Assembly (NCBI GenBank): GCA_964549495.1
Contig: CAZJWJ010000001.1
Location: forward strand, 3,020-67,019
Length of the DNA: 64,000 nt
Reading direction: 5' to 3'
DNA from: an uncultured Anaerolineales bacterium
GTDB taxonomy: Bacteria > Chloroflexota > Anaerolineae > Epilineales > Epilineaceae
How positions within the stretch are numbered: position 1 is the first letter of the stretch; every line of letters begins with the position of its first letter. Under the pieces are notes generated by a model. The model was not told the origin of the DNA and did not search any database. It worked only from the letters and a program-made list of their open reading frames with translations. Of this stretch, positions 95 to 48,878 are shown piece after piece. The position numbers and the translations under genes are program-made.

Positions 95-1306
95 TCAGAC
101 TGCCGCCAGGCCCCGCTCCAAGTCGGCGATGATGTCCTCGGCCGCCTCGATGCCGCAGGAGAGCCGCACCAGGCCGTCGCCGATGCCCTGGGCTCGGCGC
201 TCCTCGGGATCCAGGCCCCGGTGCGAGGTGAAGGCCGGCGCCGAGACCGTCGTGCCCACGTCGGCCAGACTGGGCGCCATCCGGATCATGCCCAGGCCGC
301 CGACGAAGCGCTCGAAGGCACCGCGCCCCGCGCCCGGACCGTCCTCGGGCAGGTCGAAGGCGATCATGCCGCCGAAGCCGCGCCGCAGGATGCGCCGGGC
401 GATGGCATGGGTCGGGTGGCTGGAGAGGCCCGGATAGTGGACCCGGGCCACCTTGGGATGCGCCTCCAGCCATTCGGCCACCCGGTTTCCGTTCTCGCTG
501 TGGCGGGCCATCCGCAGGTGCAAGGTGCGCAGACCCCGCTGCACCAGCCAGGCCTCCTGCGGTGCCAGGTTGCTGCCCATCGCCCGCATCACGCCGCGGG
601 CGGCCTCGATGTGCTCCGCCGCGCCGGCGGCCAGCCCGGCGATCAGGTCGCCGTGGCCGCCGAAGTACTTGGTGGCGCTGTGCACGACCAGATCGGCGCC
701 CAAGTCCAGGGGCCGGCAATGGTAGGGCGTGGTGAAGGTGCTGTCGACCACCAGCAGCGCGCCGGCCGCGTGGGCGATCTCGGCCAGACGCGGCAGGTCG
801 GCCGCCACCAAGAGCGGGTTGGAGATCGGCTCGGTGTAGAGCAGGCGCGTGCCCTCCGGCAGCCCCTGCTCGATCTGCTCGGCGCGCTGGTGCGACACCT
901 CGATGCCCAGACGGCTCAGGTGCTGGTCGAGCAGCGTGCGGGTGTTGCCGTAGAGCTGGCTGGTGGTCACGATCCGGTCGCCGGCCGAGAGCAGCGAGAG
1001 CAGGACGCTCGAGATGGCGCCCATGCCCGAGGCCGCCGCCATGGCCGCCTCGGCGCCCTCCAGGGGCGCGATGGCCATCTCCAGCGCGCGCACCGTCGGG
1101 TTGGTGGCGCGCGAGTAGGCGTAGATGTCCGGATCGCCCTCGAAGGCGCGGCGCATCGCATCCAGCGTGGGCACGTGGAAGACGGCCGATTGGAAGATGG
1201 GCGGCGAGAGCGGCGGCGTCTCCATGCCCAGGCCGGGCACCTCCGGCCCGGCGCCGCCGTGCACGCAGGCCGCGTCGAAGGACTCGGGTGATCGCGGGTC
1301 GCTCAT
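95..1306 (-). CDS. Cys/Met-metabolism PLP-dependent enzyme (cystathionine gamma-synthase / gamma-lyase / O-acylhomoserine sulfhydrylase family)
   Basis: 403-aa ORF with ATG at 1306. Family motifs YSRATNPT and GFGGMIAF, and the PLP-lysine segment VHSATKYFGGHGD. It lies 10 nt downstream of the preceding co-directional gene. Confidence 0.85.
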   Translation of the reverse strand: MSDPRSPESFDAACVHGGAGPEVPGLGMETPPLSPPIFQSAVFHVPTLDAMRRAFEGDPDIYAYSRATNPTVRALEMAIAPLEGAEAAMAAASGMGAISSVLLSLLSAGDRIVTTSQLYGNTRTLLDQHLSRLGIEVSHQRAEQIEQGLPEGTRLLYTEPISNPLLVAADLPRLAEIAHAAGALLVVDSTFTTPYHCRPLDLGADLVVHSATKYFGGHGDLIAGLAAGAAEHIEAARGVMRAMGSNLAPQEAWLVQRGLRTLHLRMARHSENGNRVAEWLEAHPKVARVHYPGLSSHPTHAIARRILRRGFGGMIAFDLPEDGPGAGRGAFERFVGGLGMIRMAPSLADVGTTVSAPAFTSHRGLDPEERRAQGIGDGLVRLSCGIEAAEDIIADLERGLAAV

Positions 1307-1316
1307 GGCATTCGTC

Positions 1317-2720
1317 CTATAGATCGAAGATCTGGCTGCGCTCGGGGATCTCGACGTGGACCAGGCCGGCCTCGCGCAGGGCGGCCGACAGGCTGTACAT
1401 GGGGCTGGGCTCGCCGTGGACCAGAAAGGTCCGCCGGAGATCGCCCCGCTCGTTCGTGCGCGCCGCCCAGTCCAGCAGTTCCTCGCGGTCGGCGTGGGCG
1501 CTGTAGCCGTTGATCTTCTCGATGCGGGCCTCGATCTCGCGCTCCTCGCCGTAGATCCGCACCGGATTCTGGCCCTCCAGGATGCGCCGGCCCAGGGTGT
1601 GCTCCGCCTGGAAGCCCACGAAGAGGATGATGCTGCCCGCCTCGTCGGCGTGGTTCTTGATGTGGTGCAGGATGCGCCCGCCCTCGCACATGCCCGAGGC
1701 GCTGATGATCACCGCCGGCGCCTCCAAGGTATTGAGCTCCATCGAACGCTCGGCCTCACGGATGTAGGTCAGGTGCCGGTAGCCCAGCGGATCGTGGTCG
1801 TCGTCACGCTGCAGGGTGGCGCGCATCTCCTCGTCGTAGCATTCGGGATGCAGCCGGAAGACCTCGGTGGCATTCACCGCCAGCGGGCTGTCGACGTAGA
1901 CCGCCACCGGCGGCAGATCGCCGGCCTCCCAGAGTTGGTTGAGCCGGTAGACCAACTCCTGGGTCCGGCCCACGGCAAAGCTGGGGATGATCAGCTTGCC
2001 GCCGGAGTCGCAGATGGCCTCGACGTTCTGCCTGAGCTTATCGCGCGCCTCGCCGGAGTCCTCGTGGCTGCGGTCGCCGTAGGTGCTCTCCATGATCAGG
2101 TAGTCGGCGCCATCGGCCACCTCCGGGTCGCGCAGGATGGGCTGGCCCTTGCGGCCGATGTCGCCGCTGAAGACCAGGCGCTCGTGGCGCCCTTCCTCCT
2201 CCAGATCCAGCACGACGCTGGCCGCACCCAGGATGTGGCCGGCGTTGATGAAACGCACCGTCACCCCGGGCAAGGGCGAGAACTCGCGGTCGAAGTCGAC
2301 CGTGCGAAAGGCCCGCAGGGCCTCGACGGCGTCCTGCTGCACGTAGAGCGGCTCGAAGGGCGTCTTGCCCTGCTCGCGGCGGCGGCGGTTGACGTAGCGC
2401 ACGTCGCTCTCCTGGATATGGGCCGAATCCAGGAGCATGTAGGCGCAGAGGTCGCGCGTGGCCGAGGTGCAGTAGATATGACCCCGATAGCCCTGTCGGA
2501 CCAGGGTCGGCAGGTTGCCGCTGTGGTCGATGTGGGCATGCGAGAGGATCACGGCGTCGATGCTGGCGGCATCGAAGGGCAGGTCCCGGTTGCGCGAGAA
2601 GGCTTCCTTGCGCCGGCCCTGGTAGAGCCCGCAGTCCAGCAGGATGCGACGGCCCTGGACCTCCAGCAGATGCATCGATCCCGTGACGGTGCGCGCGGCG
2701 CCCCAGAATTGCAGGTGCAT
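1317..2720 (-). CDS. MBL-fold metallo-hydrolase of the beta-CASP (RNA-metabolising, CPSF/RNase J-like) type
   Basis: 467-aa ORF with ATG at 2720. HxHxDH motif (LSHAHIDHSG) and a C-terminal beta-CASP-type GYSAHADREEL motif. Length is typical of the family. Confidence 0.85.
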   Translation of the reverse strand: MHLQFWGAARTVTGSMHLLEVQGRRILLDCGLYQGRRKEAFSRNRDLPFDAASIDAVILSHAHIDHSGNLPTLVRQGYRGHIYCTSATRDLCAYMLLDSAHIQESDVRYVNRRRREQGKTPFEPLYVQQDAVEALRAFRTVDFDREFSPLPGVTVRFINAGHILGAASVVLDLEEEGRHERLVFSGDIGRKGQPILRDPEVADGADYLIMESTYGDRSHEDSGEARDKLRQNVEAICDSGGKLIIPSFAVGRTQELVYRLNQLWEAGDLPPVAVYVDSPLAVNATEVFRLHPECYDEEMRATLQRDDDHDPLGYRHLTYIREAERSMELNTLEAPAVIISASGMCEGGRILHHIKNHADEAGSIILFVGFQAEHTLGRRILEGQNPVRIYGEEREIEARIEKINGYSAHADREELLDWAARTNERGDLRRTFLVHGEPSPMYSLSAALREAGLVHVEIPERSQIFDL

Positions 2721-2743
2721 GCGGTGATTGCCTTTCGTGATGG

Positions 2744-2772
2744 CTCGGATCCGTGCCGGCCCCGGATCCGAG
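2744..2772. repeat. Perfect 10-bp inverted repeat (CTCGGATCCG n9 CGGATCCGAG) in the divergent intergenic region
   Basis: Read directly: arms 2744-2753 and 2763-2772, with a 9-nt spacer. It sits 24 nt upstream of the beta-CASP gene ATG (minus strand). Function is unknown (5' UTR hairpin or operator). Confidence 0.5.
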
Positions 2773-2972
2773 ATTGTGCCACAGGTCGACGACGCAAGCC
2801 CCCGACGCGGGCCTGGCGCGGCGGTGGAGTCGCTGGATCGTCTAGCCGGGCGCTCGATTTTTCCCAGCCCGCCGACTACAATGCCGCTGCCGGGCGGCGG
2901 ATCCCGCCGGGCGACGCGATCCCAGTCCCGGGCGAGCCCGGATCGCTACGCGGTCGGGCAGATGGAGCGGTG

Positions 2973-3680
2973 ATGAGCGGTCCCGCCTTGTTGGTGGCCA
3001 GCGACGAGCTCGAGCGCAGCCTCTTGACGCTGATCCTGCAGCGCCTGGGGCTCGACGCCCAGCTGGACGCGCAGGTCGATCACGCCCTGGATGCCTGGCC
3101 GGCCGGACCGGGCGAGCTGATCCTCTTGGCCCTCGCCGGCGCCGAGGCCAGCATCGAGGTCGTGCGCCGTTTTCGCGGCCTGGCGGCGGTACCCATCGTG
3201 ACCCTGGTCGACGATCTGGACGAGGCCGGGCACGTGGCCTTGCTCGAAGCAGGCGCGGACCTGGTGCTGGGCCGGCCCTACAGCAGCCGGCTGCTCTTCC
3301 ACCAGCTGGGCGCCTTGCTGCGTCGGGTCGGTGGAATGCCGGCCTTCAGCCTGCCCACGCTCAGCGTCGGCGGGCTGACCTTGGACCCGGCCGGCCGCCT
3401 CGTGCGCGTCAAGGGCGAGAAGGCCAAGCGCCTGACCCAGCTGGAGTTCCGCATGCTCTATACCCTGATGGTCCACCGCGGCCAGGTCCTGCCGGTCGAC
3501 CTCTTGGTCGAACAGGTCTGGGGCTACACCGGCGAGGGCAACCGCGAGCTCGTCCGCAGCCTGCTGGCGCGCCTGCGGGCCAAGATCGAGCCCGATCGCA
3601 GCCAGCCGCGCTACGTTCGCACCATCCCCGGCACCGGCTATACCTTTGGCGGCGACGAGTCGGAATCGATCCTGGAATGA
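2973..3680 (+). CDS. OmpR/PhoB-family winged-helix response regulator with a degenerate (Asp-less) receiver domain
   Basis: ATG at 2973 lies inside the long 1356..3680 ORF, whose upstream part is antisense to the beta-CASP gene. The C-terminal trans_reg_C pattern is present (LTQLEFRMLYTLMVHRGQVL...VRTIPGTGYTF). The receiver-like N-terminus has SDE instead of DDE, ELILLALAG instead of DLVLLDLxLP, and R instead of the conserved Lys. Confidence 0.8.
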   Translation: MSGPALLVASDELERSLLTLILQRLGLDAQLDAQVDHALDAWPAGPGELILLALAGAEASIEVVRRFRGLAAVPIVTLVDDLDEAGHVALLEAGADLVLGRPYSSRLLFHQLGALLRRVGGMPAFSLPTLSVGGLTLDPAGRLVRVKGEKAKRLTQLEFRMLYTLMVHRGQVLPVDLLVEQVWGYTGEGNRELVRSLLARLRAKIEPDRSQPRYVRTIPGTGYTFGGDESESILE

Positions 3681-3827
3681 GCCGCCATGACAAGCCTGTC
3701 ACGCAGGAGAGGAATTCTACCACGCCCTTGCAACGCTTATGTCACGCCAATTGCATCCCGAGTCCCGAAAATGATGCCGCGATCCAAGGTGGATCGCAGC
3801 CGCATCGAATCGCTGGATCTGTGAGGA

Positions 3828-4052
3828 ATGCAGATGACCGTAAAGGACAGCCGCACCGCCGCTCGTTGCCCCGACTGCGACGAGACCATCCGCCCGCGCA
3901 CCACGCCGCGCATCGGGCAGAAGATCACCTGCTCGACCTGCGACGCCGAGCTCGAGGTGGTCGGGATCAACCCGCTCGAGCTGGAGTGGGCCATCGACGA
4001 CGATTGGGACGACGACTTCGACGACGACGATGGGGACTGGGACGACGACTGA
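3828..4052 (+). CDS. LysW-like zinc-ribbon amino-group-carrier-type protein with an extended Asp/aromatic C-terminal tail
   Basis: 74 codons with strong GC3 bias. CPDC ... CSTCDAELEVVGINPLELEWA matches the LysW zinc-ribbon/ELEVVG-PLxLE pattern. The tail is IDDDWDDDFDDDDGDWDDD. GAGGAA at 3822-3827 favours the second ATG (3834) as the real start. Confidence 0.8.
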   Translation: MQMTVKDSRTAARCPDCDETIRPRTTPRIGQKITCSTCDAELEVVGINPLELEWAIDDDWDDDFDDDDGDWDDD

Positions 4053-4110
4053 TCCCGGCTGACCGGATCGATCCGCTCAACCGGTCGACCCCACGAGAAC
4101 CGAATCGACG

Positions 4111-4149
4111 ACGCGGGCTCGTCGCCAAGCCGAGCCCGTGTTGTATTGC
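4111..4149 (+). terminator. Candidate intrinsic terminator/attenuator between the carrier gene and the enzyme genes
   Basis: 11-bp stem (4111-4121 pairs with 4131-4141, one G-U), 9-nt loop, followed by TGTATTG (weak U-tract). Located in the 175-nt gap after the 74-codon gene. Confidence 0.4.
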
Positions 4150-4227
4150 GTCTCCTCGAGCCCGATTCGCTCCGCCGGCGCCTGCTTCGGTCGGCACGAA
4201 CAGCCCCGCCGGCCCGAGAAGGAGGCG

Positions 4228-5673
4228 ATGATGAGCCGCCCGTCCGCCCGATCGGTCGAACCGGGCAGTTTCGAGCCGCAGCTTCACTTCTATCCCCGCG
4301 CGCTCAACGCCCAGCTACACCCCTTGGTGCGAGCCTTCTTGTCCTTGGACAACGCGCGCATCGCGGTGCGCTACGCCCACCTGCACCCGGAGGTCGACCC
4401 GGAGGCCATCGGCCAGGCCCTGGCCGAGCGGCCCAAGCACTTCGTCTGGGGCGGGGCCGACCTCTTCCCGGTGGCCACGGGCCGCGGGCAGCGGCGCATG
4501 GTGGTCATCGAGACCAACAGCTCGCCCTCGGGTCAGAAGTCGATGCCGCTCTACGACGACACCCGGGAGCAGGGCGGCTACGCCCAGCTGGCGGCGAGGA
4601 CCTTCCTGCGCCTCTCGCGCCGGCGGGGCCTACCGGCCGGCGGCCTGGCCGTGCTCTACGACAAGAACGAGATGGAATGCGGCGGCTACGCGGCGGCCAT
4701 CGGCGAGGCGGCCGGCGAGCCGGTCTGGCTGGTGCCGATGCCGGAGGGCACGGAGGATCCGGCGGCCCGATTCGACGGATCGGGCATTCTGGAGGTGCGC
4801 GACGAGAAGGGTGCCTGGCAGCCCATCCGCGCCGCCATGCGCTACGTCACCCAACGGCCCTGGAACCGCATCCCGCCGGTCACGCGCACCGCGCTCTGCA
4901 ACCCGGTCCTGGTCTGCCTGGCGGGCGGCCGCAACAAAGCCCTGGCGGCCAAGGCCTACGACTTTCACAACGCCAGCCTCGAGCCGGCCGGCCTGCGCAT
5001 CCGCACCCCCGAGACCATCTGGGATGTGACGCGCCAAGAGGTTCCCTTGTGGGTGGCGCGCATGGGCGGCCGGGCGGTGGTCAAGGTGCCCTACGCCAAC
5101 GCAGGCCAGGGCATCTACACCATCACCAGCCCCGAGGAGCTGGAGGCCTTCATGCAGTCCTCGGCGCGCTACGATCGCTTCATCGTGCAGGCTCTGGTCG
5201 GTAACTCGGGCTGGAGCTCGCAGAGCGCGGCCGGCAGCCTGTATCACGTCGGCACCCTGCCCGACCGCCGCCTGCGCATCCACGTGGCCGACCTGCGCCT
5301 GATGGTGGGCGCGGACGAGTCGGGCTTCTACCCGCTAGCCCTCTACGCCCGCCGCGCCCGCCGGCCCCTGGCCGAACGCCTCGAGAGCGGCCGCTCCAGC
5401 TGGGACATGCTGGGCACCAACCTCTCCGTGCGCCGGCCGGACGGCAGCTGGGACACCGAGAGCGAGCGCCTCCTCATGGTCGACACCCGCGACTACAACC
5501 GCCTGGGCCTGGGCCTGGACGACCTGATCGAAGCCTATTTGCAGACGGTCCTGGCGGTGACGGCCATCGACCGCATGGCCCAACGCCTGGTCACCCAGCG
5601 TGGCGCCTTCCGCCACAAACTCTTCGCCTCGCTCACGCCCGACCCCGCGCTGGCTTCCGAGATCCTCCGATGA
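4228..5673 (+). CDS. Divergent ATP-grasp-like ligase, apparently with permuted motif order
   Basis: GAAGGAGG at 4218-4225 precedes ATGATG at 4228/4231. The ATP-grasp Lys-strand/Gly loop [16 protein letters not shown] and FIVQALV...ADLRLMV are present. An ExN-type motif, [11 protein letters not shown], lies about 190 residues N-terminal to them. The stop overlaps the next start (ATGA). Confidence 0.6.
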
Positions 5674-6794
5674 GCTCCAGCCCGGGATCGCGGGCACCGA
5701 GCGCGTCCGAGATCGCGCCGGCTCGGCGTGTCACGGCCATCGACCTGGCCGGGCCCCGTCCGGGCGCGCGTCAAGACCAGTGGGTCGAGCTGGGTCAGGA
5801 TGGACTCGGCGCGCCCGTCGCATTGCCGGTCGCCGTCCTGCGCGGCCAGAGCGATGGACCGGTCCTGGGCCTGACAGCCGCCCTGCACGGCGACGAGCTC
5901 AACGGCATCGCCGTCCTGCACCGGCTGCTGGCGCGGCTGGATCCGGAGCGCCTGCGCGGCACGATCGCGGCGGTGCTGGTGGCCAACCCACCGGCCTACC
6001 TGGCCGGCACGCGGCGTTACCCGGACCACTTCGACCTCAACCACCTCTTCCCGGGCGATCCGGCCGGCAAGGAGTCCGAGCAGTTCGTCCACCGCCTGCT
6101 CGAGCGGGTGATCGCGCCGGCCGAGATCCTGATCGACCTGCACACCGCCAGCCTCGACCGGGTCAACAGCTACTACGTCCGTGCCGACCTGCAGCGGGCC
6201 GAATCGGCGCGGCTGGCCTGGCGCCAACGGCCGCAGATCCTGCTGCATGCGCCGGCCGGCCCGACCAGCCTGCGCGGCCACGTGGAAGGCTTGGGCCGGC
6301 CGGCGATCACGCTGGAGATCGGCGACCCGCGGGCCTGGCAACCCCGCCTGGTCCAAGCGGCTACGGACGGACTGCTGGCCAACCTGATCGGCTTGGACAT
6401 GGTCGATCCCGACCTCCCCGCCGCGGTCGATGCACTCGAGCGCCTGGCCGCGACGCCCGAGCCGGCCGTCTGCACCCGCTCCAGCTGGATCCGCAGCGAG
6501 CGCGGCGGACTGGCCCGCGTCTATCCCGAACTGGCCCAGCGCCTGGAGTCCGGCCACCTGCTGGCCGAGCTGCGCGACGTCTTCGGCCGGCCGGTCGACC
6601 GCCTGCTGGCCCCCGAGGCCGGCGTCGTCATCGGCCGCGCGCATTCACCTATCCTGCGCTCGGGCGGCCGCGTGATCCATCTGGGGGTCGAGTCGGAGCC
6701 CGGCGAGCTGCCGGTGCTGGAGACGGTGGTCGCCGAGCTGGCGAACGCTGCGGCCACTGCGCCGTCCGACGAACTCGACGACGAGCGGGGCTGA
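5670..6794 (+). CDS. AstE/AspA-family (succinylglutamate desuccinylase/aspartoacylase, M14-like) zinc hydrolase, paralogue 1
   Basis: ATGA overlap with the upstream gene. Zinc-ligand motifs [10 protein letters not shown] and IDLHTAS. About 374 aa, typical for the family. Confidence 0.8.
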
Positions 6795-6799
6795 TCGCG

Positions 6800-7831
6800 A
6801 TGCGTCTGATCTTCCTGGTCAACCGGCTCGACGAGCTACAGCCCAAGATGACCACCGCCATGCTGATCGAGGCGGCAGCGCGCGAGGGGCTGGAGCCGCG
6901 GGTCGCGGCGGTCGACGGGCTGTGGCTGGACGCGGATGGGAGCATCTCGGCCAAGACCCACCGACCCTCCGGCCTTCCAGCGGCGCGGGACGACGACGGT
7001 GCGAGGGTGCAATGGCTGATGGCATTGGCCTCGAGCCAGCCGGAAGTTTGGGCACTCGAGCCCGGTGACCGCTTGTGGATTCGGACCAATCCAGCGCGGG
7101 ACGCGGCCCGTGCGGGAAGTCACCGCCTCGCCTTGGACTTGGCCGGCCTGGCCGCGGAGCGCGGCGTTGCGGTGGCCAACGACCCGCGGGGACTGACCCT
7201 GGCGGCCAGCAAACTCTACCTGGCAAGGCTGCCGGAGGCGACGGTGCCGCGGGGGATCGTGGCGGGCGAGGCGGAGCGGCTGCGCGAATTCGTCGCCGCG
7301 GCGGAGGGTCCGGTGGTGCTCAAGCCCCTGGCCGGCACCCGCGGCGCCGGCGTCTTCCGCGTCCAAGCCGGCGAGCCCAATCTGGGCAGCATCCTCGAAT
7401 CGCTGCTGGCCAGCGGGCCGGTGATGGCGCAGGATTGGCTGCCGGGTGCCGAGGAGGGAGATCTGCGCGTGCTCCTGCTCGACGGCCGGACCTTGACCGC
7501 GCCGGGCGGCTGGGCGGCGATCCGGCGCCGACCGGCGGCGGGCGATTTTCGCAGCAACCTGCACGCCGGCGGGCGGGCCGAGCCGGCCGAGCCGACGGCC
7601 GAGCAGCAGGCGACGCTGGCGGCCATCGCGCCGCGTCTGGTCGCCGACGGGCTGCGCCTGGTGGGCGTGGACTTGATCGGCCCGCGGGTGATCGAGCTCA
7701 ACGTCTTCAGCACCGGCGGGCTACGCGACGCCGAGCGCTTTGCCGCTGCCGACTTCAGCCGCATGGTGGTCCGGGGCCTGATCGAGGATCCGGGCTCGAG
7801 CGCAGGACCTTTGGAGGATGCAGAAGCATGA
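6800..7831 (+). CDS. Glutathione-synthetase (GshB)-like ATP-grasp ligase
   Basis: ATG at 6800, 5 nt after the previous stop. The GshB-type N-terminus is MRLIFLVNRLDELQPKMTTAMLIEAAAREG. ATP-grasp motifs are PVVLKPLAGTRGAGV, GDFRSNLHAGG and VIELNVFSTGG. Confidence 0.8.
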   Translation: MRLIFLVNRLDELQPKMTTAMLIEAAAREGLEPRVAAVDGLWLDADGSISAKTHRPSGLPAARDDDGARVQWLMALASSQPEVWALEPGDRLWIRTNPARDAARAGSHRLALDLAGLAAERGVAVANDPRGLTLAASKLYLARLPEATVPRGIVAGEAERLREFVAAAEGPVVLKPLAGTRGAGVFRVQAGEPNLGSILESLLASGPVMAQDWLPGAEEGDLRVLLLDGRTLTAPGGWAAIRRRPAAGDFRSNLHAGGRAEPAEPTAEQQATLAAIAPRLVADGLRLVGVDLIGPRVIELNVFSTGGLRDAERFAAADFSRMVVRGLIEDPGSSAGPLEDAEA

Positions 7832-9000
7832 AGATCGCCCTCTTGACGCTCAACGGCCGCAGCTACACCGCCAAGCGCCTGCGCGAGGCGGCCCGCGCGC
7901 GCGGGCACACGATCCGCGTGATGCGCACCGATCGCTTCAACATCTCGGTCGAGACCGGGCAGCCGGATCTCTACTACCGCGGCCGGCACGTGCTGCACGT
8001 GGACGCCGCCATCCCGCGCATCGGGGTCTCGATCACCCATTTCGGCACGGCGGTGGTGCGCCAGCTGGAGCAGATGGAGGTCTTCTGCCTCAACGGCTCG
8101 CTGGGCATCGCCAACGCGCGCGACAAGCTGCGCGGCCTGCAGATCCTGGCCCGGCACGACATCGGCATCCCGGCCACCAGCTTCGTGCGCGACAAGGCCG
8201 ACGTGCTGCCGGCCATCGGGCGGGTGGGCGGCGCGCCGGTGATCATCAAGCTGCTCGAGGGTACGCAGGGCTCGGGGGTGGTGCTGGCCGAGACGACCCA
8301 GATCGCCTCGGCCATCGTGCAGGCGCTGCACAGCGCGCAACAAAATGTGCTGGTGCAGAAGTTCGTGGCCGAGAGCCGCGGCCGCGACATCCGCGCCCTG
8401 GTGGTGGGCGACGAGGTGGTGGCGGCCATGCGCCGCGTGGCCCGCGAGGGCGAGTTCCGCAGCAACGTGCACCTGGGCGCCAGCACCGAGGCGGTCGATC
8501 TGGACCCCGAAGCGGCGCGGGTGGCGGTGCGAGCGGCGCAGATCATGGGCCTTCGGGTGGCCGGCGTGGACATGCTGGAGAGCGAGAGCGGGCCGCAGGT
8601 CATCGAGGTCAACTCCTCGCCGGGCCTGGAGGGCATCGAGGGCGCGACCGGGGTGGATGTGGCCGGCGCGATCGTCGAGCACGGCGAGGAGCACGTGCTC
8701 TTCCCGGATCTGGACATCCGCCAGCGCCTGACGGTCAGCCGCGGCTACGGGGTCTGTGAGCTGCCGGTGCCCAAGGGCTCGCCCTTGATCGGCCAGAGCA
8801 TCGAGGAAGGGCTGCGCGAGCAGGACATCGCGGCGCTCAGCCTGCACCGCGAGGGCACGGTGATCCCCAACCCGCGCGGTGGCCGCGTGCTGCAAAAGGG
8901 CGATCGGCTGCTCTGTTACGGCCGGCTGGAGACCATGCGCGGCCTCTTGCCGCCCAAGCCCAAGCGGCGTCGGCGGCGCAAGAGCCCCAAACGTGGCTGA
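7828..9000 (+). CDS. RimK/LysX-family ATP-grasp alpha-L-glutamate-type ligase fused to a TrkA-C (RCK_C)-like domain and a polybasic tail
   Basis: ATGA overlap at 7828. RimK-like motifs are MKIALLT..., PVIIKLLEGTQGSGVVLAE, GEFRSNVHLGA and VIEVNSSPGLEGIE. The C-terminal stretch is PLIGQSIEEGLREQDIAALSLHREGTVIPNPRGGRVLQKGDRLLCYG, followed by PPKPKRRRRRKSPKRG. Confidence 0.8.
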   Translation: MKIALLTLNGRSYTAKRLREAARARGHTIRVMRTDRFNISVETGQPDLYYRGRHVLHVDAAIPRIGVSITHFGTAVVRQLEQMEVFCLNGSLGIANARDKLRGLQILARHDIGIPATSFVRDKADVLPAIGRVGGAPVIIKLLEGTQGSGVVLAETTQIASAIVQALHSAQQNVLVQKFVAESRGRDIRALVVGDEVVAAMRRVAREGEFRSNVHLGASTEAVDLDPEAARVAVRAAQIMGLRVAGVDMLESESGPQVIEVNSSPGLEGIEGATGVDVAGAIVEHGEEHVLFPDLDIRQRLTVSRGYGVCELPVPKGSPLIGQSIEEGLREQDIAALSLHREGTVIPNPRGGRVLQKGDRLLCYGRLETMRGLLPPKPKRRRRRKSPKRG

Positions 9001-10081
9001 TTCCAAGGTCGGCGCCGGCCTGCTCGAATTGGCCGGCGAGTCGATCGCGTTGGGCGAGACCCGCGACCTGCTCTTGCCGATCAGCCAGCAGTACAGCGGC
9101 CAGCCGGTGGAGCTGCCCATCCGCGTCTGGCGCGCCGAGGCGCCGGGGCCGACGCTCCTGGTGACGGCGGCCATCCACGGCGACGAGCTCAACGGCACGG
9201 GCATCGTCCGGGCCCTGGCCAGCGACCCGCCCTTCGACTTGGTCCGCGGCAGCCTGGTGATGCTCCCGGTGGTCAACCTGCCGGCCTTCGAGCGCCATTC
9301 GCGCTACCTGCCCGACCGGCGCGACCTGAACCGCCAGTTCCCGGGCCGGGCCACCGGCAACTTGGCCAGCCGCTACGCGGCCACGCTCTTCGAGGCCCTG
9401 ATACCCATCTGCGACTACGGCATCGACCTGCATTCGGCGGCGATCCGGCGGACCAACTTTCCCAACCTGCGCGCCGACTTGAACGATGCCGGCACCCGCC
9501 GCTTGGCCCGCGCTTTCGGTTGCGAATTGACCATCCACGGCAAGGGGCCGCGCGGCTCCTTCCGCCGCGCCGCGACCAAGGCCGGCTGCCCGACCATCAT
9601 CCTGGAGGCCGGCGAGATCTGGAAGATCGAGCCCTCGGTGGTCGAGATCGGCCTGCGCGGCCTGCGCAACGTGGCCATCGCCCTGGGCATGGCCGAGGGC
9701 AAGCCCCGACTCCCGCCCTTCCAGGCCAACGTCCTGCGCAGCACCTGGCTGCGTGCCGAGGCCGGCGGCCTGCTCCAATTCCACGTCGCCCCCGGCGAGC
9801 CGGTCGACCGCCACCAGGCCCTGGCCACCGTCACCGACCTGCTCGGCCGCTCGCGCCACTTACTTCGAGCCCCTCGCGGCGGCCTGGTCCTGGGCTTGAC
9901 CACCATGCCGGCCGTCACCCCGGGCGAACCCATCTGCAATCTGGCCCATCCCCAGGGCGGCATGCGCCGGGTCCGCGCGGCGCTGGCGGGTGTGGCCGAC
10001 GACGCGCTGGCCGAGCGGCTGCGGCAGGACCTGGCGACCAACGTGGAGGTGCAGTCGCCGGGTGGGACGGCGGATCGCTAG
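8993..10081 (+). CDS. AstE/AspA-family (M14-like) zinc hydrolase, paralogue 2
   Basis: A GTG at 8993 overlaps the rimK-like stop (GTGGCTGA). Motifs AAIHGDELNG, DLNRQFPG and IDLHSAA are parallel to paralogue 1. The track ORF start at 8879 would overlap rimK-like by 120 nt, so I moved it. Confidence 0.75.
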   Translation: MADSKVGAGLLELAGESIALGETRDLLLPISQQYSGQPVELPIRVWRAEAPGPTLLVTAAIHGDELNGTGIVRALASDPPFDLVRGSLVMLPVVNLPAFERHSRYLPDRRDLNRQFPGRATGNLASRYAATLFEALIPICDYGIDLHSAAIRRTNFPNLRADLNDAGTRRLARAFGCELTIHGKGPRGSFRRAATKAGCPTIILEAGEIWKIEPSVVEIGLRGLRNVAIALGMAEGKPRLPPFQANVLRSTWLRAEAGGLLQFHVAPGEPVDRHQALATVTDLLGRSRHLLRAPRGGLVLGLTTMPAVTPGEPICNLAHPQGGMRRVRAALAGVADDALAERLRQDLATNVEVQSPGGTADR

Positions 10082-10108: not shown

Positions 10109-12475
10109 ATGAGCGAAAAGGACCCGAATCCCCGCTTCTTCGACGTCGTCGGCATGGATTGCCCCAGCTGCGCGCGCAACCTGGAGGCCGGCCTCGGCCG
10201 GCTGGATGGCGTGACCAGCTGCCGCGTGAACTACGGCACGCGCAAGATGGAGCTCGAGGGCGATGCAGCGCGCGAGGCCATCGCCGAACGGGTGAAGGCC
10301 CTGGGCTACGAGCTGGTCGAGCCGGGCGCGGGAGTGTCCAGCGCCAGCGCAGCCGCTCGCGGTGGTCTCTGGGCCTACTTGGCCTCGCGGCCCGAGGGCC
10401 GGCTGGCGGCAATCGGCTTACCGCTGATCGTTCCCGGCCTGCTGTTGGGCGAACTGACGGGACGCGAAGCACCGCTATGGGCCTCGGCGCTGGCCCTCCT
10501 TGCCGCGGTGCTCACCGGCGGACCGGTGGTTCGGGCCGGCTGGCGCAGCCTGCGCTTCGGGCGCGCCATCGACATGAGCGTGCTGATGAGCATCGCCGGC
10601 CTGGGCGCGGTGGCCATCGGAGCCTGGGTCGAGGCCGGCATGCTGATGACCCTCTTCGCCATCGGCGAGGCCCTCGAGGGTTACACGGCCGATCGGGCGC
10701 GGCAGGCGGTCCAATCGCTCTTGGAGGCGGCGCCCAGCGATGCCACGCGCATCCGGCGGGCCGGGCAGGGCGCGCTCGAATTGAGCATGATCGAGGAAGA
10801 CGTCGACATCGACGACTTGGTGCCGGGCGACGTGATCCTGGTGCGGCCCGGCGGGCGCATCCCGGTCGACGGGCGGATCCTGGCCGGCGCCTCGGCGGTC
10901 GACGAGGCCGCGCTGACCGGCGAGCCCTTGCCCGTGACCCGCGGCGAGGGCGATGCGCTGCGGGCCGGCACGGTCAACGGCGAAGGCGCGCTGGAGGTCG
11001 AGGTGCTGCGGCCGGCCTCCGAGAGCACGCTGGCCCGCATCGTGGCCATGGTCGAGCAGGCCCAGGCCCGCGAGGCGCCCAGCCAGCGCATCATCGACCG
11101 CTTCGCGGCCGTCTACACACCGGCCGTGGTGGTCCTGGCGGCGGCGACGGTGCTGCTGCCGCCGCTGGTCTTCGGCCAGCCCCTGCTCGATCCGCCCGAT
11201 GGCGGCCGCGGCTGGCTCTATCGCGGGCTGGCGCTCTTGGTCGTGGCCTGCCCCTGCGCGCTGGTCATCGGCGCGCCGGTGGCCACCATCAGCGCCATCG
11301 CCAACGCGGCGCGCCATGGCGTGCTCTTCAAGGGCGGCGCGGTGCTCGAGCGCTTGGCTGAGGTGCGCGCGCTGGCCTTCGACAAGACCGGCACGCTGAC
11401 GCTGGGCAAGCCGACCGTCGTCGCGCTGCAATCGGTCGGCTGCCCGGTCGGTGGTCACGGGTTGGTCGAGAACGGCGACTCGATGGCGGCGGATGGACGG
11501 TTCACGGTCGCTGATCGGATAGCGGCCGGTGGCCGGGTCGCCGACACGAGCGCCTCACCGGCCACCCTGGCGCTGGCCTGCGAGCCCTGCGACATGCTCT
11601 TGGGCATGGCCGGCGCCGTGGAGCGCCGCAGCCAGCATCCGGCCGCCCGGGCGGTGGTGGCCGAGGCGCATCGGCGCGGGGTCGAGGATCGCTTCGCGCC
11701 GGCCGAGTCGGTGGAGTCGCTGACCGGCATGGGGGTGCGCGGCGCGGTGGCCGGCCGGCCGGTGACGGTGGCCAGCCATCGCTACTTCGACCAGGGCCTG
11801 CCCCACGACGACGAGCATTGCGCGGCGGCCGATCGCGAGATCCAGGCCGGCAACTCGCCCATCCTGGTCAGCGCCGGCCAGACCTACCTGGGCCGCATCA
11901 CCATCGCCGACCGGGTGCGCGAGAGCAGCCGGCAGTCGCTGGATCGCCTGCGCGAGCTCGGCCTGGGCGAGCAGGTGATGCTCACCGGCGACGTCCGCCC
12001 GGGCGCCGAGCGCGTGGCCCGCACCGTCGGTCTGGACGCGGAGCGCGTGCGGGCCGAGCTCTTGCCGGAGGAGAAGCTGAAGGCCATCGACGACTTGCGC
12101 CGACAGCACGGCCCGGTGGCCATGGTCGGCGACGGCATGAACGACGCGCCGGCCCTGGCCGCGGCCGACGTCGGCATCGCGGTGGCCGGCCCCGAGGGCA
12201 CGGCACAGGCCATGGAGACCGCCGACATCACCCTGATGGCCGGCGACCTGCACCAGCTGCCCTTCGCCTTCCGGGTGGCCCGTGCCGGCCGCCGGGGCGT
12301 CATCTTCAACGTGGTGCTGGCCTTGGCGATCAAGTTTGCCTTCGTGCTCCTGGTGCTGGCCGGCCTGGGCACCATGTGGATGGCGGTGCTGGCCGACGTC
12401 GGCGCGACGGTGCTGGTGACCCTGCTGGGCATGCGATTGTTGCGCCGACCGCTGCCGGAGCCGGTGCCGGCATGA
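10109..12475 (+). CDS. P1B-type heavy-metal-translocating ATPase (Zn/Cd/Co/Pb-type, ZntA/CadA-like)
   Basis: N-terminal HMA motif [17 protein letters not shown] motif (VACPCALV), phosphorylation site DKTGTLT, and hinge [10 protein letters not shown]. 788 aa. Confidence 0.9.
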
Positions 12476-12507: not shown

Positions 12508-13311
12508 TCACTCCCCCTCGATCAGCTCCCGCAGCGCGGCCTCGAAGTTGCGGAAGTCACCGTGCTGGTGGATGCCCTCGGCCTCTTCCTCGCTGATCGG
12601 GCCGGCCACCACGCGCGACATGGCAAAGACCGTCTCTTCGCCCTCGGCCGTTAGGTCGTAGGTTGTATCCATGACCGTGGCCGGCCCGAGCTGGGTCCGC
12701 ATGGTCACCTTGGCCGGTGGGTCCCAGTGCGTCACGTGGCCGTAGTGATGACCGCTGCCGTCTCCCCAGTCCTCGTAGAGCGCGCCGCCGACCCGCTCCT
12801 CGAGCACCACGGCGCGGGTGCGCTCGCCACCGTAGGTCAGGCGGAACCATTCCTGACTGCGGCGCGTGAGCACCTCGAAGACGGTTTCGGGCGCGGCGCT
12901 GAAGCGCAGCTCGTTCTCGATTCGGACGACGCGGTAGGTATCTCGATCCGACATGCTGTTCCCTTGCTCCTGCGTGGATTCCTGCTCGGAGGACGCCTCG
13001 GCCAGGCGCCCGATGGATAGGGCCTCGCCGGCCGCATCGCCGGCCAGCCGCGAGACCCAGCGCTCGTAGACGCGCTGAACCGGCGCCGCGTTGAGGTGGT
13101 TGAAGCGCTCACGACCCTGCCGGCGCACCAGGATCAGCCCCGCATCCGTCAGCACGCCCAGGTGCTGCATCACCGCAAAGCGGCTCAGCTCGGGCTGTGC
13201 CTCGGCCAGCTCGCCGGTCGTCCGCGGGCCGTCGCGCAGGGCATCCAGCAGCTGGCGTCGGGTGGGATTGGCCAGGGCCTTCCAGATGGCCGCATCATCG
13301 TTCGCGTTCAT
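12508..13311 (-). CDS. ArsR/SmtB-family HTH regulator fused to a C-terminal SRPBCC/AHSA1-like domain
   Basis: The ArsR pattern is present (WKALANPTRRQLLDALRDGPRTTGELAE...SRFAVMQHLGVLTDAGLILVRRQGRERF). About 150 aa of C-terminal SRPBCC-like sequence follow. I place the start at ATG 13311; the track start at 13329 is a GTG lying inside the palindrome. Confidence 0.75.
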   Translation of the reverse strand: MNANDDAAIWKALANPTRRQLLDALRDGPRTTGELAEAQPELSRFAVMQHLGVLTDAGLILVRRQGRERFNHLNAAPVQRVYERWVSRLAGDAAGEALSIGRLAEASSEQESTQEQGNSMSDRDTYRVVRIENELRFSAAPETVFEVLTRRSQEWFRLTYGGERTRAVVLEERVGGALYEDWGDGSGHHYGHVTHWDPPAKVTMRTQLGPATVMDTTYDLTAEGEETVFAMSRVVAGPISEEEAEGIHQHGDFRNFEAALRELIEGE

Positions 13312-13331
13312 ATGTGATAAGAATATCACAT
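13312..13331. promoter_or_regulatory. Candidate ArsR-type operator: ATGTGATA-AGAA-TATCACAT palindrome
   Basis: Perfect 8-bp arms with a 4-bp spacer, AT-rich in a GC-rich genome. It abuts the ATG of the ArsR-family gene and overlaps its putative -10. Confidence 0.5.

Positions 13332-45791: not shown

Positions 45792-48878
<3,087 letters not shown>

What the first reader, a model, noticed from the sequence alone, without database searches (positions are those of the whole stretch)
3828..10081. LysW-like carrier gene followed by three different ATP-grasp ligases and two M14-like hydrolases, with no LysZYJK: candidate novel protein-tail ligation/trimming or carrier-protein pathway
Seen in the sequence:
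- A 74-codon gene encodes a LysW-type zinc ribbon.
- Five co-directional, translationally coupled genes follow it (ATGA overlaps at 5670 and 7828, GTGGCTGA overlap at 8993, 5-nt gap at 6795-6799).
- Their order is ligase-hydrolase-ligase-ligase-hydrolase: a divergent ATP-grasp, AstE/AspA, a GshB-like ATP-grasp, a RimK/LysX-like ATP-grasp, AstE/AspA.

Established knowledge:
- LysX/ArgX (RimK family) ligate an amino acid to the C-terminal Glu of LysW.
- RimK adds oligo-Glu to the acidic tail of ribosomal protein S6.
- The LysW route then needs a kinase (LysZ), a reductase (LysY), an aminotransferase (LysJ) and an M20 hydrolase (LysK). None of these is present here.

Inference: this operon contains only amide-bond-forming and amide-bond-cleaving enzymes. 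It may build and trim amino-acid or oligo-acidic additions on the carrier tail. Alternatively it may assemble a small peptide-like metabolite while tethered to the carrier. I do not recognise this gene combination as a described system.
Basis: partly seen in the sequence, partly recalled or inferred. Interest (0 to 1): 0.9.

Follow-up and report, generated by a model that had tools for sequence, protein, structure and literature searches.

The report
Acidic-tailed LysW copy beside ligase/hydrolase genes
A small zinc-ribbon protein with a long, tubulin-like acidic tail sits in front of three amide-forming and two amide-cutting enzymes, which suggests but does not prove a bacterial system that lengthens and trims a protein tail; the cluster turns out to be three separately conserved modules, one built around a large enzyme family nobody has characterised.

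Summary
All six genes, their order, their overlaps and their domain assignments are real.

Corrections:
- g1 most likely starts at 3834 (72 aa).
- g1 is not translationally coupled to g2. A 178-nt spacer with a 14-bp hairpin separates them.

The cluster is not one conserved unit. It is three modules.
1. An aspartate-less OmpR-type regulator plus g1. g1 is a genuine LysW paralogue with a D/E/W/Y tail instead of EDWGE. Its family has more than 1100 members, mostly Chloroflexota. 53% of 119 examined end in Y, W or F.
2. g2-g3-g4. g2 is a new family with no Pfam or NCBIfam model, whose predicted fold resembles circularly permuted eukaryotic glutathione synthetase. It is found at about 580 loci across at least 8 phyla, and in some eukaryotes. 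55 of 80 fetched loci also carry an AstE-like hydrolase and a GshB/RimK-like ligase.
3. g5-g6, a RimK-TrkA_C ligase plus a deacylase.

None of the 80 g2 loci has g1. However, g1 relatives sit directly upstream of ATP-grasp genes in three different contexts, one of them with a MATCAP-type carboxypeptidase. A second, unrelated acidic-tail protein family flanks g2 in Myxococcota.

Tail ligation and trimming is therefore plausible (about 0.4). A small acidic-peptide pathway is the main rival. A LysW-style tethered biosynthesis is unlikely.

The parts
2976..3680 (+). Aspartate-less OmpR-type regulator (pseudo-receiver plus Trans_reg_C), the conserved partner of g1
   Evidence: Trans_reg_C E 1.2e-17. 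There is no Response_reg hit. The phospho-acceptor position reads ELILLALAG, with Ala in place of Asp (read from the sequence). It is 45-59% identical to the regulators upstream of g1-like genes in L081 and L086. The same gene pair occurs in L099, L101, L103 and L105.
3697..3760 (+). Four to five direct repeats T(T/G)nCA(C/A)CGC at about 11-nt spacing, upstream of g1. Probable binding sites for the regulator and the promoter of g1.
   Evidence: Read from the sequence. The same repeat architecture appears in six other spacers upstream of g1-like genes, including the CorA-g1 spacer of L081 (alignment A4). That the regulator binds here is inferred.
3834..4052 (+). g1: a LysW-fold zinc ribbon (CPDC...CSTC) with the tail DDDWDDDFDDDDGDWDDD. 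An alternative start is at 3828.
   Evidence: Pfam PF21344 E 4e-9. TIGR01206 lysW 39 bits, below the cut-off of 53.2. The AlphaFold ribbon has pLDDT about 90 and its best PDB matches are T. thermophilus LysW (TMt 0.77-0.92, rmsd 0.7-1.1 A, 42-44% identity). The family has 1109 proteins. pI 4.05.
4108..4144 (+). 14-bp G+C-rich hairpin in the g1-g2 spacer. Candidate partial terminator or attenuator.
   Evidence: RNA fold of 4053-4160: -46.7 kcal/mol, z-score -3.2. L103 has a hairpin in the same position with a different sequence, z-score -5.0. The consensus terminator scan did not call it, because there is no clean T-run.
4231..5673 (+). g2: an uncharacterised family whose predicted fold resembles eukaryotic glutathione synthetase (circularly permuted ATP-grasp); predicted ligase. 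An alternative start is at 4228.
   Evidence: No Pfam, NCBIfam or PDB sequence hit. The AlphaFold model matches 1m0w, 2hgs and 5oes. The N-terminal IETNSSPSG stretch aligns weakly with the RimK C-terminal ExN motif (hhalign E 0.0024, probability 12%). More than 3669 homologues, 56-83% identical across phyla. 919 clusters at 50% identity, including eukaryotes.
5670..6794 (+). g3: AstE/AspA-type (M14-like) zinc hydrolase
   Evidence: PF24827 E 4.5e-33, with HGDE, IDLHTAS and TLEIG motifs. Below the cut-offs for AstE, ASPA and DoeB. Orthologues follow g2 in most loci.
6800..7831 (+). g4: GshB-like ATP-grasp ligase
   Evidence: GSH-S_N plus GSH-S_ATP. PRK12458 241 bits, below 408. GshB equivalogs 150-173 bits, below 272-299. 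It is the third member of the conserved triad.
7828..9000 (+). g5: RimK-family alpha-L-glutamate ligase fused to TrkA_C, ending in the basic stretch KPKRRRRRKSPKRG
   Evidence: RimK_N plus RimK plus TrkA_C. rimK_fam 243 bits, above 143. PRK10446 317 bits, below 331. The basic C-terminus is conserved in L001.
8993..10081 (+). g6: second AstE/AspA-type zinc hydrolase, 32% identical to g3
   Evidence: PF24827 E 5.3e-36. It keeps the DLNRQFPG carboxylate-binding N-R motif, read from the translation.
10109..12475 (+). Zn/Cd-type P1B ATPase that starts 27 nt after g6. Possibly co-transcribed, probably not part of the system.
   Evidence: TIGR01525 555 bits and TIGR01512 471 bits. tblastn with this protein found no match at E <= 1e-5 in any of the 80 g2 loci, L001 included.

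Best explanation
The locus is a lineage-specific juxtaposition, in a Caldilineae-like Chloroflexota genome, of three modules that are each conserved on their own.

1. A regulator plus g1. The regulator is an OmpR-type protein without the phospho-acceptor aspartate. g1 has its own promoter carrying tandem direct repeats.
2. The g2-g3-g4 triad: a glutathione-synthetase-like permuted ATP-grasp, an AstE-like zinc hydrolase and a GshB-like ATP-grasp.
3. The g5-g6 pair: a RimK-TrkA_C ligase and an AstE-like hydrolase.

Proposed mechanism. Each ligase activates a free carboxylate as an acyl phosphate and adds an amino acid. This is general ATP-grasp chemistry, and RimK and GshB act on C-terminal alpha-carboxylates. 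Each M14-like hydrolase removes a C-terminal acidic residue, which is the reverse reaction. The enzymes would therefore form writer/eraser sets acting on an acidic C-terminus.

In this lineage the most likely substrate is the disordered Asp/Trp/Phe tail of g1. g1 would be made in excess from its own promoter. The enzymes would be expressed by read-through of the hairpin.

Shown here: the gene anatomy, the folds, the modularity, and the recurring adjacency of acidic-tail proteins to such ligases.

Inferred: the substrate identity, the residues added, the read-through, and binding of the regulator to the repeats.
For: - Gene anatomy and coupling of g2 to g6.
- g1 is a true LysW-fold protein. Solved complexes show this fold docking onto the RimK-family ligases LysX and ArgX (PDB 3vpb and 5k2m appear among the hits).
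- The order regulator-g1-g2 recurs in L103, where g1 is 78% identical.
- g1 relatives head an operon g1|FGase|MATCAP(QEGLA)|PRK12458 GshB-like with a 43-nt gap. Another precedes a methyltransferase-Ddl-like ATP-grasp fusion.
- MATCAP/TMCP enzymes are carboxypeptidases that act on acidic tubulin tails (PMC10499314).
- g1-family tails are 64% D/E and 19% W/Y/F. 53% end in an aromatic residue, as alpha-tubulin does with -EEY.
- In Myxococcota a different small protein (a ~60-residue domain that looks DUF1858-like by eye, not profile-tested) with the same kind of D/E/W/F tail lies beside g2 in 5 loci. Only 7 ORFs in 1.1 Mb of locus sequence have such extreme acidity, and 5 of them belong to this family.
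- g2, g5 and g6 are basic (pI 9.3-9.9) while g1 has pI 4.05.
- Pairing a ligase with a hydrolase of opposite chemistry, with no modifying enzyme between them, fits reversible modification better than linear biosynthesis (inference).
Against: - None of the 80 fetched g2 loci encodes g1. This includes L001, with g2-g6 at 83% identity.
- g2 also occurs in phyla and eukaryotes where no g1 family member was seen.
- About 7 of 11 non-redundant g1-family contexts show no adjacent ligase.
- The steadiest neighbour of g1 is the regulator.
- The 178-nt spacer with a strong hairpin may be a full terminator.
- g5 scores almost as an S6-specific RimK.
- The FGase-QEGLA-GshB-like triad occurs in Shinella with no annotated small acidic gene next to it.
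- A Chondrinema variant pairs g2 and an AstE-like gene with a GNAT, which points to small N-acyl amino acids.
- The window was picked because of this adjacency, so it cannot count as independent evidence.
Confidence: 0.4

Rival explanations
1. Small-molecule pathway. The g2-g3-g4 triad makes and recycles a small acidic peptide. Candidates are a glutathione-like tripeptide or an N-acyl-Asp/Glu oligopeptide resembling NAAG, used as an osmolyte, metal ligand or redox buffer. g5-g6 is an ordinary RimK plus deacylase pair acting on ribosomal protein S6 or on free poly-Glu. g1 and its regulator are simply neighbours.
For: - The triad is self-contained and widespread without any adjacent small protein. 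55 of 80 loci have g2 plus a hydrolase plus a ligase, and 43 keep the order g2-g3-g4.
- Both triad ligases resemble glutathione synthetases, one eukaryotic-type by fold and one bacterial-type by sequence.
- Characterised AstE/AspA-family enzymes hydrolyse small N-acyl amino acids (established knowledge). The partial NCBIfam hits are to DoeB, AstE and ASPA.
- The Chondrinema plasmid has GNAT|AstE-like|g2-like. This mirrors the animal set NAT8L, RIMKLA/B and ASPA (established knowledge).
- g5 is close to the RimK equivalog cut-off.
- The g1-g2 spacer contains a hairpin.
Against: - A ligase and a hydrolase of opposite chemistry in one translationally coupled operon would run a futile cycle, unless the hydrolase acts on a different bond.
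- Acidic-tail proteins of two unrelated families recur next to g2.
- g2 is much more conserved (56-83% across phyla) than g3 and g4 in the same loci (about 40%). That is unusual for a peripheral metabolic enzyme.
- No transporter, precursor-supply or tailoring gene is conserved nearby.
Confidence: 0.33
2. g1 is a regulatory or stress partner of the aspartate-less OmpR-type regulator. It could act as an anti-activator or DNA mimic through its polyanionic tail, as a cation-buffering protein, or as a holdase. The genes downstream are merely the variable regulon. The enzymes never touch g1.
For: - The regulator-g1 pair is conserved in at least 7 distinct contexts, with the same tandem repeats upstream of g1.
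- The downstream genes vary: histidine kinases, HSP20 genes, ATP-grasp operons.
- Cation-related genes are often nearby: CorA in L081, FeoAB and a ferric reductase in L094, MscS-type channels in L097 and L100, and a Zn/Cd ATPase in the window.
Against: - This does not explain why ATP-grasp ligases of three different families are the immediate downstream genes in three contexts, one with a 43-nt gap and a MATCAP-type tail carboxypeptidase.
- It does not explain why over half of the family ends in Y, W or F.
- It is compatible with tail modification rather than exclusive of it. The tail state could be the signal.
Confidence: 0.17
3. LysW-type amino-group carrier. A metabolite is built while amide-linked to the g1 C-terminus, with one hydrolase acting as the release enzyme.
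For: - g1 has the LysW fold, with 42-44% identity to the ribbon of T. thermophilus LysW.
- A RimK/LysX-family ligase and hydrolases are present.
Against: - The C-terminal EDWGE/Glu motif is absent. None of 121 family members ends in GE, and the C-terminus is not conserved.
- There is no kinase, reductase, aminotransferase or other tailoring enzyme in the cluster or elsewhere in the 64-kb window.
- g1 fails the LysW equivalog models (39 < 53.2 and 18 < 75).
- g5 scores far better as RimK (317 bits) than as LysX (130 bits).
Confidence: 0.05

Closest known systems
LysW/ArgW amino-group carrier protein with LysX/ArgX (Thermus, Sulfolobus, Thermococcus)
   Same: - g1 has the same zinc-ribbon fold (TMt up to 0.92, 44% identity) followed by an acidic tail.
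- A RimK/LysX-family ATP-grasp is encoded nearby.
   Different: - The tail is 3-10 times longer, rich in Asp/Trp/Tyr, and has a non-conserved C-terminus instead of EDWGE.
- There is no LysZ, LysY, LysJ or LysK.
- g1 is paired with a transcription regulator.
- g1 fails the LysW equivalog models.
RimK (with RimA/RimB) modification of ribosomal protein S6
   Same: - g5 is a RimK-family alpha-L-glutamate ligase (rimK_fam 243 bits, above the cut-off of 143).
- The concept is the same: ATP-grasp addition of Glu to an acidic protein C-terminus, opposed by a hydrolase.
   Different: - g5 carries a TrkA_C domain and a polybasic tail.
- The opposing enzyme is an AstE/AspA-type zinc hydrolase, not the retropepsin-like RimB.
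- Two further ligases are present.
- The S6 gene is not in the window.
Eukaryotic tubulin tail code: TTL/TTLL ATP-grasp ligases against CCP (M14) and MATCAP/TMCP carboxypeptidases
   Same: - ATP-grasp writers and M14-like or MATCAP-family erasers act on a disordered acidic C-terminal tail.
- That tail often ends in an aromatic residue. 53% of g1-family tails end in Y, W or F.
- A MATCAP-family (QEGLA) gene follows a g1 relative.
   Different: - This is an analogy of chemistry and gene content only.
- The ligases here are GshB, RimK and glutathione-synthetase-like, not TTL-family.
- The substrate is a 7-10 kDa zinc ribbon, not tubulin.
- No modification has been demonstrated.
FGase-QEGLA(TIGR02421/PF08014)-PRK12458 'glutathione synthetase' triad of Proteobacteria (uncharacterised)
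   Same: - It is also a compact module of a ligase plus hydrolases.
- g4 is most similar to PRK12458 (241 bits).
- The very same triad follows a g1 relative in L081 (PRK12458 484 bits > 408; QEGLA 346 bits > 338.65).
   Different: - The window uses AstE-like hydrolases and an extra glutathione-synthetase-like ligase instead of FGase and MATCAP.
- The Shinella copy has no annotated small acidic gene next to it.
N-acetylaspartate/NAAG metabolism (NAT8L, RIMKLA/B, ASPA) and glutathione synthesis (GshB, eukaryotic GSS)
   Same: - RimK-like and glutathione-synthetase-like ATP-grasp ligases appear together with an aspartoacylase-family hydrolase.
- The Chondrinema variant adds a GNAT.
   Different: - None of the window proteins reaches the curated cut-offs for GshB, ASPA or AstE.
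- g2 resembles eukaryotic GSS only in fold (12-13% identity, TM 0.36-0.40).
- There is no GshA-type partner.

Membership tests
LysW / amino-group carrier protein | Four-Cys zinc-ribbon globular domain of the LysW type | tested here: met
   PF21344 36.4 bits, above the cut-off of 27. The AlphaFold model superposes on T. thermophilus LysW at rmsd 0.7-1.1 A with 42-44% identity.
LysW / amino-group carrier protein | Conserved C-terminal EDWGE motif ending in the Glu that carries the substrate | tested here: not met
   g1 ends in DWDDD. None of 121 family members ends in GE. Among 119 examined, the C-terminal residue is Y 42, D 28, W 15, E 10, F 6.
LysW / amino-group carrier protein | Curated equivalog score (TIGR01206; NF041070) | tested here: not met
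   39 bits against a cut-off of 53.2, and 18.2 bits against 75.
LysW / amino-group carrier protein | Genomic association with lysX, lysZ, lysY, lysJ and lysK | tested here: not met
   None found in the cluster or among the roughly 35 ORFs tested across the 64-kb window. The M20 protein is YgeY-like, not LysK. The rest of the genome is not available.
RimK (S6:glutamate ligase) | RimK_N plus RimK ATP-grasp architecture and the rimK_fam subfamily score | tested here: met
   g5: PF18030 E 6e-31, PF08443 E 3e-60. TIGR00768 243 bits, above 143.4.
RimK (S6:glutamate ligase) | Equivalog score for the S6-specific enzyme (NF007764) | tested here: not met
   317.2 bits against a cut-off of 331, narrowly below. 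g5 also has an extra TrkA_C domain.
RimK (S6:glutamate ligase) | [quoted passage not shown] | not testable with these tools
   Needs biochemistry. rpsF is not in the window.
Glutathione synthetase (bacterial GshB) | Equivalog scores (TIGR01380, NF003573) | tested here: not met
   g4: 150 bits < 299 and 173 bits < 272. PRK12458 241 bits < 408. The domain architecture GSH-S_N plus GSH-S_ATP is present.
Eukaryotic-type glutathione synthetase (circularly permuted ATP-grasp) | Permuted ATP-grasp fold | tested here: inconclusive
   The top 13 Foldseek hits for g2 are eukaryotic GSS or GSS-like proteins (E 2.6e-7 to 2.4e-4, about 450 aligned columns). However, TM is only 0.36-0.40 and model pLDDT is 72.6. 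The N-terminal ExN motif aligns with the RimK C-terminal motif (hhalign E 0.0024, probability 12%).
Eukaryotic-type glutathione synthetase (circularly permuted ATP-grasp) | Sequence membership (Pfam GSH_synth_ATP/GSH_synthase) and gamma-Glu-Cys plus Gly specificity | tested here: not met
   No Pfam or NCBIfam hit at E <= 0.01 and no PDB sequence hit. Substrate specificity cannot be tested here.
AstE / aspartoacylase / DoeB deacylases | AstE_AspA catalytic domain with HxxE, a second His and a catalytic Glu | tested here: met
   g3 E 4.5e-33 and g6 E 5.3e-36. Motifs HGDE, IDLH(T/S)A and LE(I/A)G were read. HG(N/D)E is conserved in g3 orthologues.
AstE / aspartoacylase / DoeB deacylases | Equivalog scores for AstE, ASPA or DoeB | tested here: not met
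   DoeB 64.6 and 89.5 bits < 402.7. ASPA 24 bits < 180. AstE 17-19 bits < 305.
Known anti-phage defence systems | Match to a PADLOC model | tested here: not met
   No hit for any of the seven proteins.

The most novel reading that the evidence does not exclude
A bacterial counterpart of the tubulin tail code. A family of more than 1000 LysW-derived zinc-ribbon proteins, mostly in Chloroflexota, carries disordered D/E-rich tails punctuated by W/Y/F and often ending in an aromatic residue. ATP-grasp ligases extend these tails, and M14-like or MATCAP-type carboxypeptidases trim them. The ligases would be the new glutathione-synthetase-like g2 family, GshB-like enzymes and RimK-like enzymes. The tail state would feed into an aspartate-less OmpR-type regulator that controls the locus. 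The widely distributed g2-g3-g4 triad would then be a general writer/eraser for acidic protein C-termini in at least 8 bacterial phyla and some eukaryotes.
Probability: 0.2. Interest if true: 0.85.

Novelty: new variant of a known kind. Interest (0 to 1): 0.68.

Why it matters
- If the tail is modified, this would be a second bacterial example, after RimK and S6, of reversible amino-acid addition to a protein C-terminus. It would have several writers and erasers and a dedicated small substrate, and it would link bacterial MATCAP/QEGLA and COG3608-type deacylases to protein-tail trimming.
- Whatever the substrate, the work defines three uncharacterised and very widespread entities that can now be tested directly:
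  1. The g2 family: more than 3600 sequences, no Pfam or NCBIfam model, 56-83% identity across phyla, with members in nematodes, Fonticula and a red alga.
  2. The g2-AstE-like-GshB-like triad.
  3. The acidic-tailed LysW paralogue family that current pipelines mislabel as 'lysine biosynthesis protein LysW'.

Tried and rejected
- tblastn and motif scans for g1 in the 80 g2 loci found only low-complexity acidic matches.
- The profile of g2 against PDB sequences gave nothing.
- hhalign of g2 against g4 gave nothing. Against g5 it gave only a weak motif match.
- Clustering of neighbouring ORFs around g2 found only one further recurrent neighbour, a sigma54 enhancer-binding protein in 26 of 80 loci.
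- PADLOC gave no hit.
- Literature searches found no description of this gene set. The searches covered LysW, RimK, desuccinylase, DUF1704/QEGLA, the acidic-tail zinc ribbon, and bacterial tail ligase plus carboxypeptidase.
- The comparative-genomics paper most likely to mention RimK-deacylase links (Iyer et al. 2009, PMC3268129) is not held. My recollection of it is not used as evidence.
The closest named relative is a Caldilineae MAG.
- The idea that the M20 gene 5 kb downstream is LysK was rejected.
- The idea that the 354-aa ORF after g2 in Chondrinema is the second ligase was rejected. No NCBIfam hit and no significant BLAST similarity to g2-g6; by eye it carries metallophosphoesterase-like motifs.

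Full report
**1. Observation**

ORF listing and translation reproduce six co-directional genes.
- ATGA overlap at 5670.
- A 5-nt gap at 6795-6799.
- ATGA overlap at 7828.
- GTGGCTGA overlap at 8993.

Profile searches confirm the domain assignments:
- g1 is a Zn_ribbon_LysW protein.
- g3 and g6 carry AstE_AspA catalytic domains.
- g4 has GSH-S_N plus GSH-S_ATP.
- g5 has RimK_N plus RimK plus TrkA_C.

Three corrections are needed.
- g1 most likely starts at 3834 (72 aa). A GAGGA box lies 7 nt upstream, and the database protein P0121 starts there.
- g1 and g2 are separated by 178 nt containing a 14-bp G+C-rich hairpin. g1 is therefore not translationally coupled to the enzymes.
- The long ORF 1356-3680 is an artefact of high G+C content. 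The real upstream gene is a 234-aa regulator at 2976-3680. It lies divergent from a beta-CASP gene on the other strand.

**2. The first ligase, g2**

g2 matches no Pfam or NCBIfam model and no PDB sequence. An AlphaFold model built on 23 homologues has pTM 0.79 and pLDDT 72.6.

Its best structural matches are yeast, human and potato glutathione synthetases and nematode GSS-like effectors (E 2.6e-7 to 2.4e-4, probability 1.0, about 450 aligned columns). TM-scores are only 0.36-0.40. RimK, Ddl, PurK and LysX/ArgX follow further down the list.

Eukaryotic glutathione synthetase is the textbook circularly permuted ATP-grasp (established knowledge). Consistent with that, the invariant N-terminal IETNSSPSG stretch of g2 aligns with the C-terminal ExN magnesium motif of RimK (weak, E 0.0024, probability 12%).

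The family is large and unusually conserved:
- More than 3669 proteins, with top hits 62-83% identical.
- Hits come from Chloroflexota, Myxococcota, Planctomycetota, Cyanobacteria, Bacteroidota, Acidobacteriota, Actinomycetota and Proteobacteria.
- 919 clusters at 50% identity.
- Members in Trichinella, Trichuris, Fonticula alba and Cyanidium caldarium.
- Every named member is labelled 'hypothetical'.

**3. Is the six-gene order conserved?**

No. A scan of one genome per species returned at least 580 loci that encode g2 relatives. I examined 80 of them with 8-kb flanks:
- 55 have g2 plus an AstE-like hydrolase plus a GshB/RimK-like ligase within 4 kb.
- 43 keep the order g2-g3-g4.
- g5 and g6 follow only in L001, a Caldilineae MAG whose g2 is 83% identical.
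- g1 is absent from all 80 loci. In L001 the upstream genes are yidC and jag.

Clustering of neighbouring ORFs found only one further recurrent neighbour, a sigma54 enhancer-binding protein in 26 loci.

**4. The g1 family**

The ribbon of g1 superposes on T. thermophilus LysW at 0.7-1.1 A rmsd with 42-44% identity. It is a true LysW paralogue.

A profile of seven ribbons retrieved 1109 proteins. The named ones are from Anaerolineae and Caldilineae.

The 120 best hits plus g1 share CPxC...PR(I/L)GQK(I/L)TC..C..ELEV(V/I)..DP(L/V)ELDWAY. Tail statistics for the 119 with a recognisable end-of-ribbon motif:
- Tail length: 10-59 residues, median 20.
- Composition: 42% D, 22% E, 10% W, 7% Y.
- C-terminal residue: Y, W or F in 63 of 119; D or E in 38.
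- None of the 121 ends in GE.

The defining LysW C-terminus is therefore missing. g1 also fails both LysW equivalog models.

**5. Neighbourhoods of g1 relatives**

I used twelve contig look-ups and one metagenome scan.

The steadiest neighbour is an orthologous OmpR-type regulator, 45-59% identical to the one in the window. Its receiver domain is degenerate and lacks the phospho-acceptor Asp. It is present in the window, L103, L081 group, L086/85, L099, L101 and L105.

Spacers upstream of g1-like genes share tandem TTnCAC(G/A)-type repeats at about 11-nt spacing ahead of a -10-like box. This also holds in L081, where two genes separate the regulator from g1. g1 therefore has its own promoter, probably controlled by this regulator.

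The genes downstream of g1 relatives vary:
- g2 in L103. The N-terminus [28 protein letters not shown] matches g2.
- FGase-MATCAP/QEGLA-PRK12458 GshB-like, with a 43-nt gap and overlapping genes.
- A methyltransferase-Ddl-like ATP-grasp fusion in L101.
- Histidine kinases in L086 and L099.
- HSP20 genes in L105.
- Impact_N/YigZ in L097 and L102.
- Unrelated genes in L094, L095 and L100.

So ATP-grasp ligases of three different families directly follow g1 relatives in 3 of about 11 non-redundant contexts. This count includes the window lineage, which was selected for exactly this property.

**6. A second kind of acidic-tail protein next to g2**

In five Myxococcota loci (L010, L011, L023, L028, L065) a small protein lies beside g2 and its sigma54 regulator. 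Its ~60-residue N-terminal domain looks DUF1858-like by eye, though it gave no NCBIfam hit and was not scanned against Pfam. It has a long D/E tail punctuated by W and F.

In 1.1 Mb of locus sequence only 7 ORFs have a 25-residue window with at least 16 D/E. Five of those belong to this family.

This parallels the Chloroflexota arrangement of regulator, acidic-tail protein and triad, but with non-homologous parts. It is the strongest hint that the triad deals with acidic protein tails. It covers only a minority of loci.

**7. Mechanism**

ATP-grasp ligases form an acyl phosphate on a carboxylate and add an amine. RimK and GshB act on C-terminal alpha-carboxylates. AstE/AspA and M14 enzymes cleave an N-acyl bond to a residue with a free alpha-carboxylate. 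All of this is established knowledge.

Ligase and hydrolase in each pair are therefore chemical opposites, and nothing in the operon would modify an intermediate. That fits reversible addition and removal, or synthesis and breakdown of an oligomer, better than a linear pathway.

Other observations agree with g1 as a substrate but do not prove it:
- MATCAP/TMCP enzymes trim acidic tubulin tails (PMC10499314).
- g1 relatives next to MATCAP end in W. g1 and P0122, which sit next to AstE-like enzymes, end in D.
- g2, g5 and g6 are basic, while g1 has pI 4.05.

**8. Why I stop at about 0.4**

- The triad, and g2 in particular, clearly functions without g1 in most organisms.
- g5 is almost an S6-type RimK (317 bits against a cut-off of 331).
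- The FGase-QEGLA-GshB-like triad in Shinella has no annotated small acidic gene beside it.
- A Chondrinema plasmid pairs g2 and an AstE-like gene with a GNAT. That recalls N-acetylaspartate/NAAG chemistry.
- The hairpin may fully terminate transcription of g1.

The main rival is a small acidic-peptide pathway, with g1 as the partner or target of the regulator. A tethered, LysW-style biosynthesis is the least likely reading.

**9. Novelty**

None of the parts is a new kind of protein. The following are not described in the libraries or literature I could search:
- The g2 family.
- The g2-g3-g4 triad.
- The acidic-tailed LysW paralogue family with its aspartate-less regulator.
- Their recurrent adjacency.

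I file the finding as a new variant of known kinds (ATP-grasp and M14 writer/eraser systems; LysW-like proteins). The substrate is unresolved.

Noticed in passing
window 2976-3680 and 3697-3760: An OmpR-type regulator has Ala in place of the phospho-acceptor Asp in its receiver domain. Four to five direct repeats T(T/G)nCA(C/A)CGC at about 11-nt spacing follow it, upstream of g1. The same regulator-g1 pairing and repeat architecture occur in L103, L086, L099, L101, L105 and L081.
   Followed up: partly
proteins P0264, P0272, P0296, P0392: The g2 family has eukaryotic members with E-values of 1e-111 to 1e-175: Trichinella pseudospiralis, Trichuris suis, Fonticula alba and Cyanidium caldarium. 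All are annotated as hypothetical. The Trichinella gene model is fused to a CTF18-like AAA protein.
   Followed up: partly
L010 2068-2421(+), L065 6106-6447(+), L011 7473-7751(-), L023 about 428-853(-), L028 1099-1275(-) and 7641-7961(+): Small proteins with a ~60-residue N-terminal domain that looks DUF1858-like by eye (not profile-tested) and long D/E tails containing W and F lie next to g2 and a sigma54 enhancer-binding protein in Myxococcota MAGs.
   Followed up: partly
L097 8001-8953; L102 7001-7938: Long-tailed g1 relatives (97-98 aa) are followed, after a gap of 11-14 nt, by an Impact_N/YigZ-family gene in Caldilineaceae-type contigs. This is a second conserved pairing of the family.
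   Followed up: no
L100 7001-13082: One contig carries four LysW-like paralogues within 6 kb, together with a short Trans_reg_C ORF.
   Followed up: no
protein P0125: A 112-aa protein has two tandem LysW-like ribbons and a basic C-terminus, with no acidic tail.
   Followed up: no
window 10109-12475 and 12508-13329(-): A Zn/Cd-type P1B ATPase starts 27 nt after g6, followed by a convergent (opposite-strand) ArsR-family regulator. No match to the ATPase was found in any of the 80 g2 loci, L001 included. Cation-related genes (CorA, FeoAB, ferric reductase, MscS) also recur near g1 relatives.
   Followed up: partly
L106 (Chondrinema litorale plasmid NZ_CP111058) 5471-9634: A variant arrangement: GNAT, AstE-like hydrolase, g2-like protein (44% identity), then an ORF with metallophosphoesterase-like motifs. 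There is no second ATP-grasp.
   Followed up: partly
L107 (Shinella pShin-02) 5213-8957; 129 plasmid records: The triad FGase, QEGLA-motif (MATCAP family) protein and PRK12458 'glutathione synthetase' sits as a compact operon on the Shinella pShin-02 plasmid; the QEGLA protein alone matched 129 plasmid records, mostly rhizobial and Pseudoalteromonas. No small acidic gene is annotated beside the Shinella copy.
   Followed up: partly
window 8950-9000: The RimK-TrkA_C protein g5 ends in the polybasic stretch KPKRRRRRKSPKRG. This is conserved in L001 and partly in L033.
   Followed up: partly
window 1356-3680, 7216-9276(-): Very long spurious ORFs, antisense or out of frame relative to real genes, are common in this roughly 70% G+C sequence. 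The 774-aa ORF listed upstream of g1 is one of them.
   Followed up: yes
window 45792-48878: A single 1028-aa ORF fuses the alpha and beta subunits of glycyl-tRNA synthetase.
   Followed up: no
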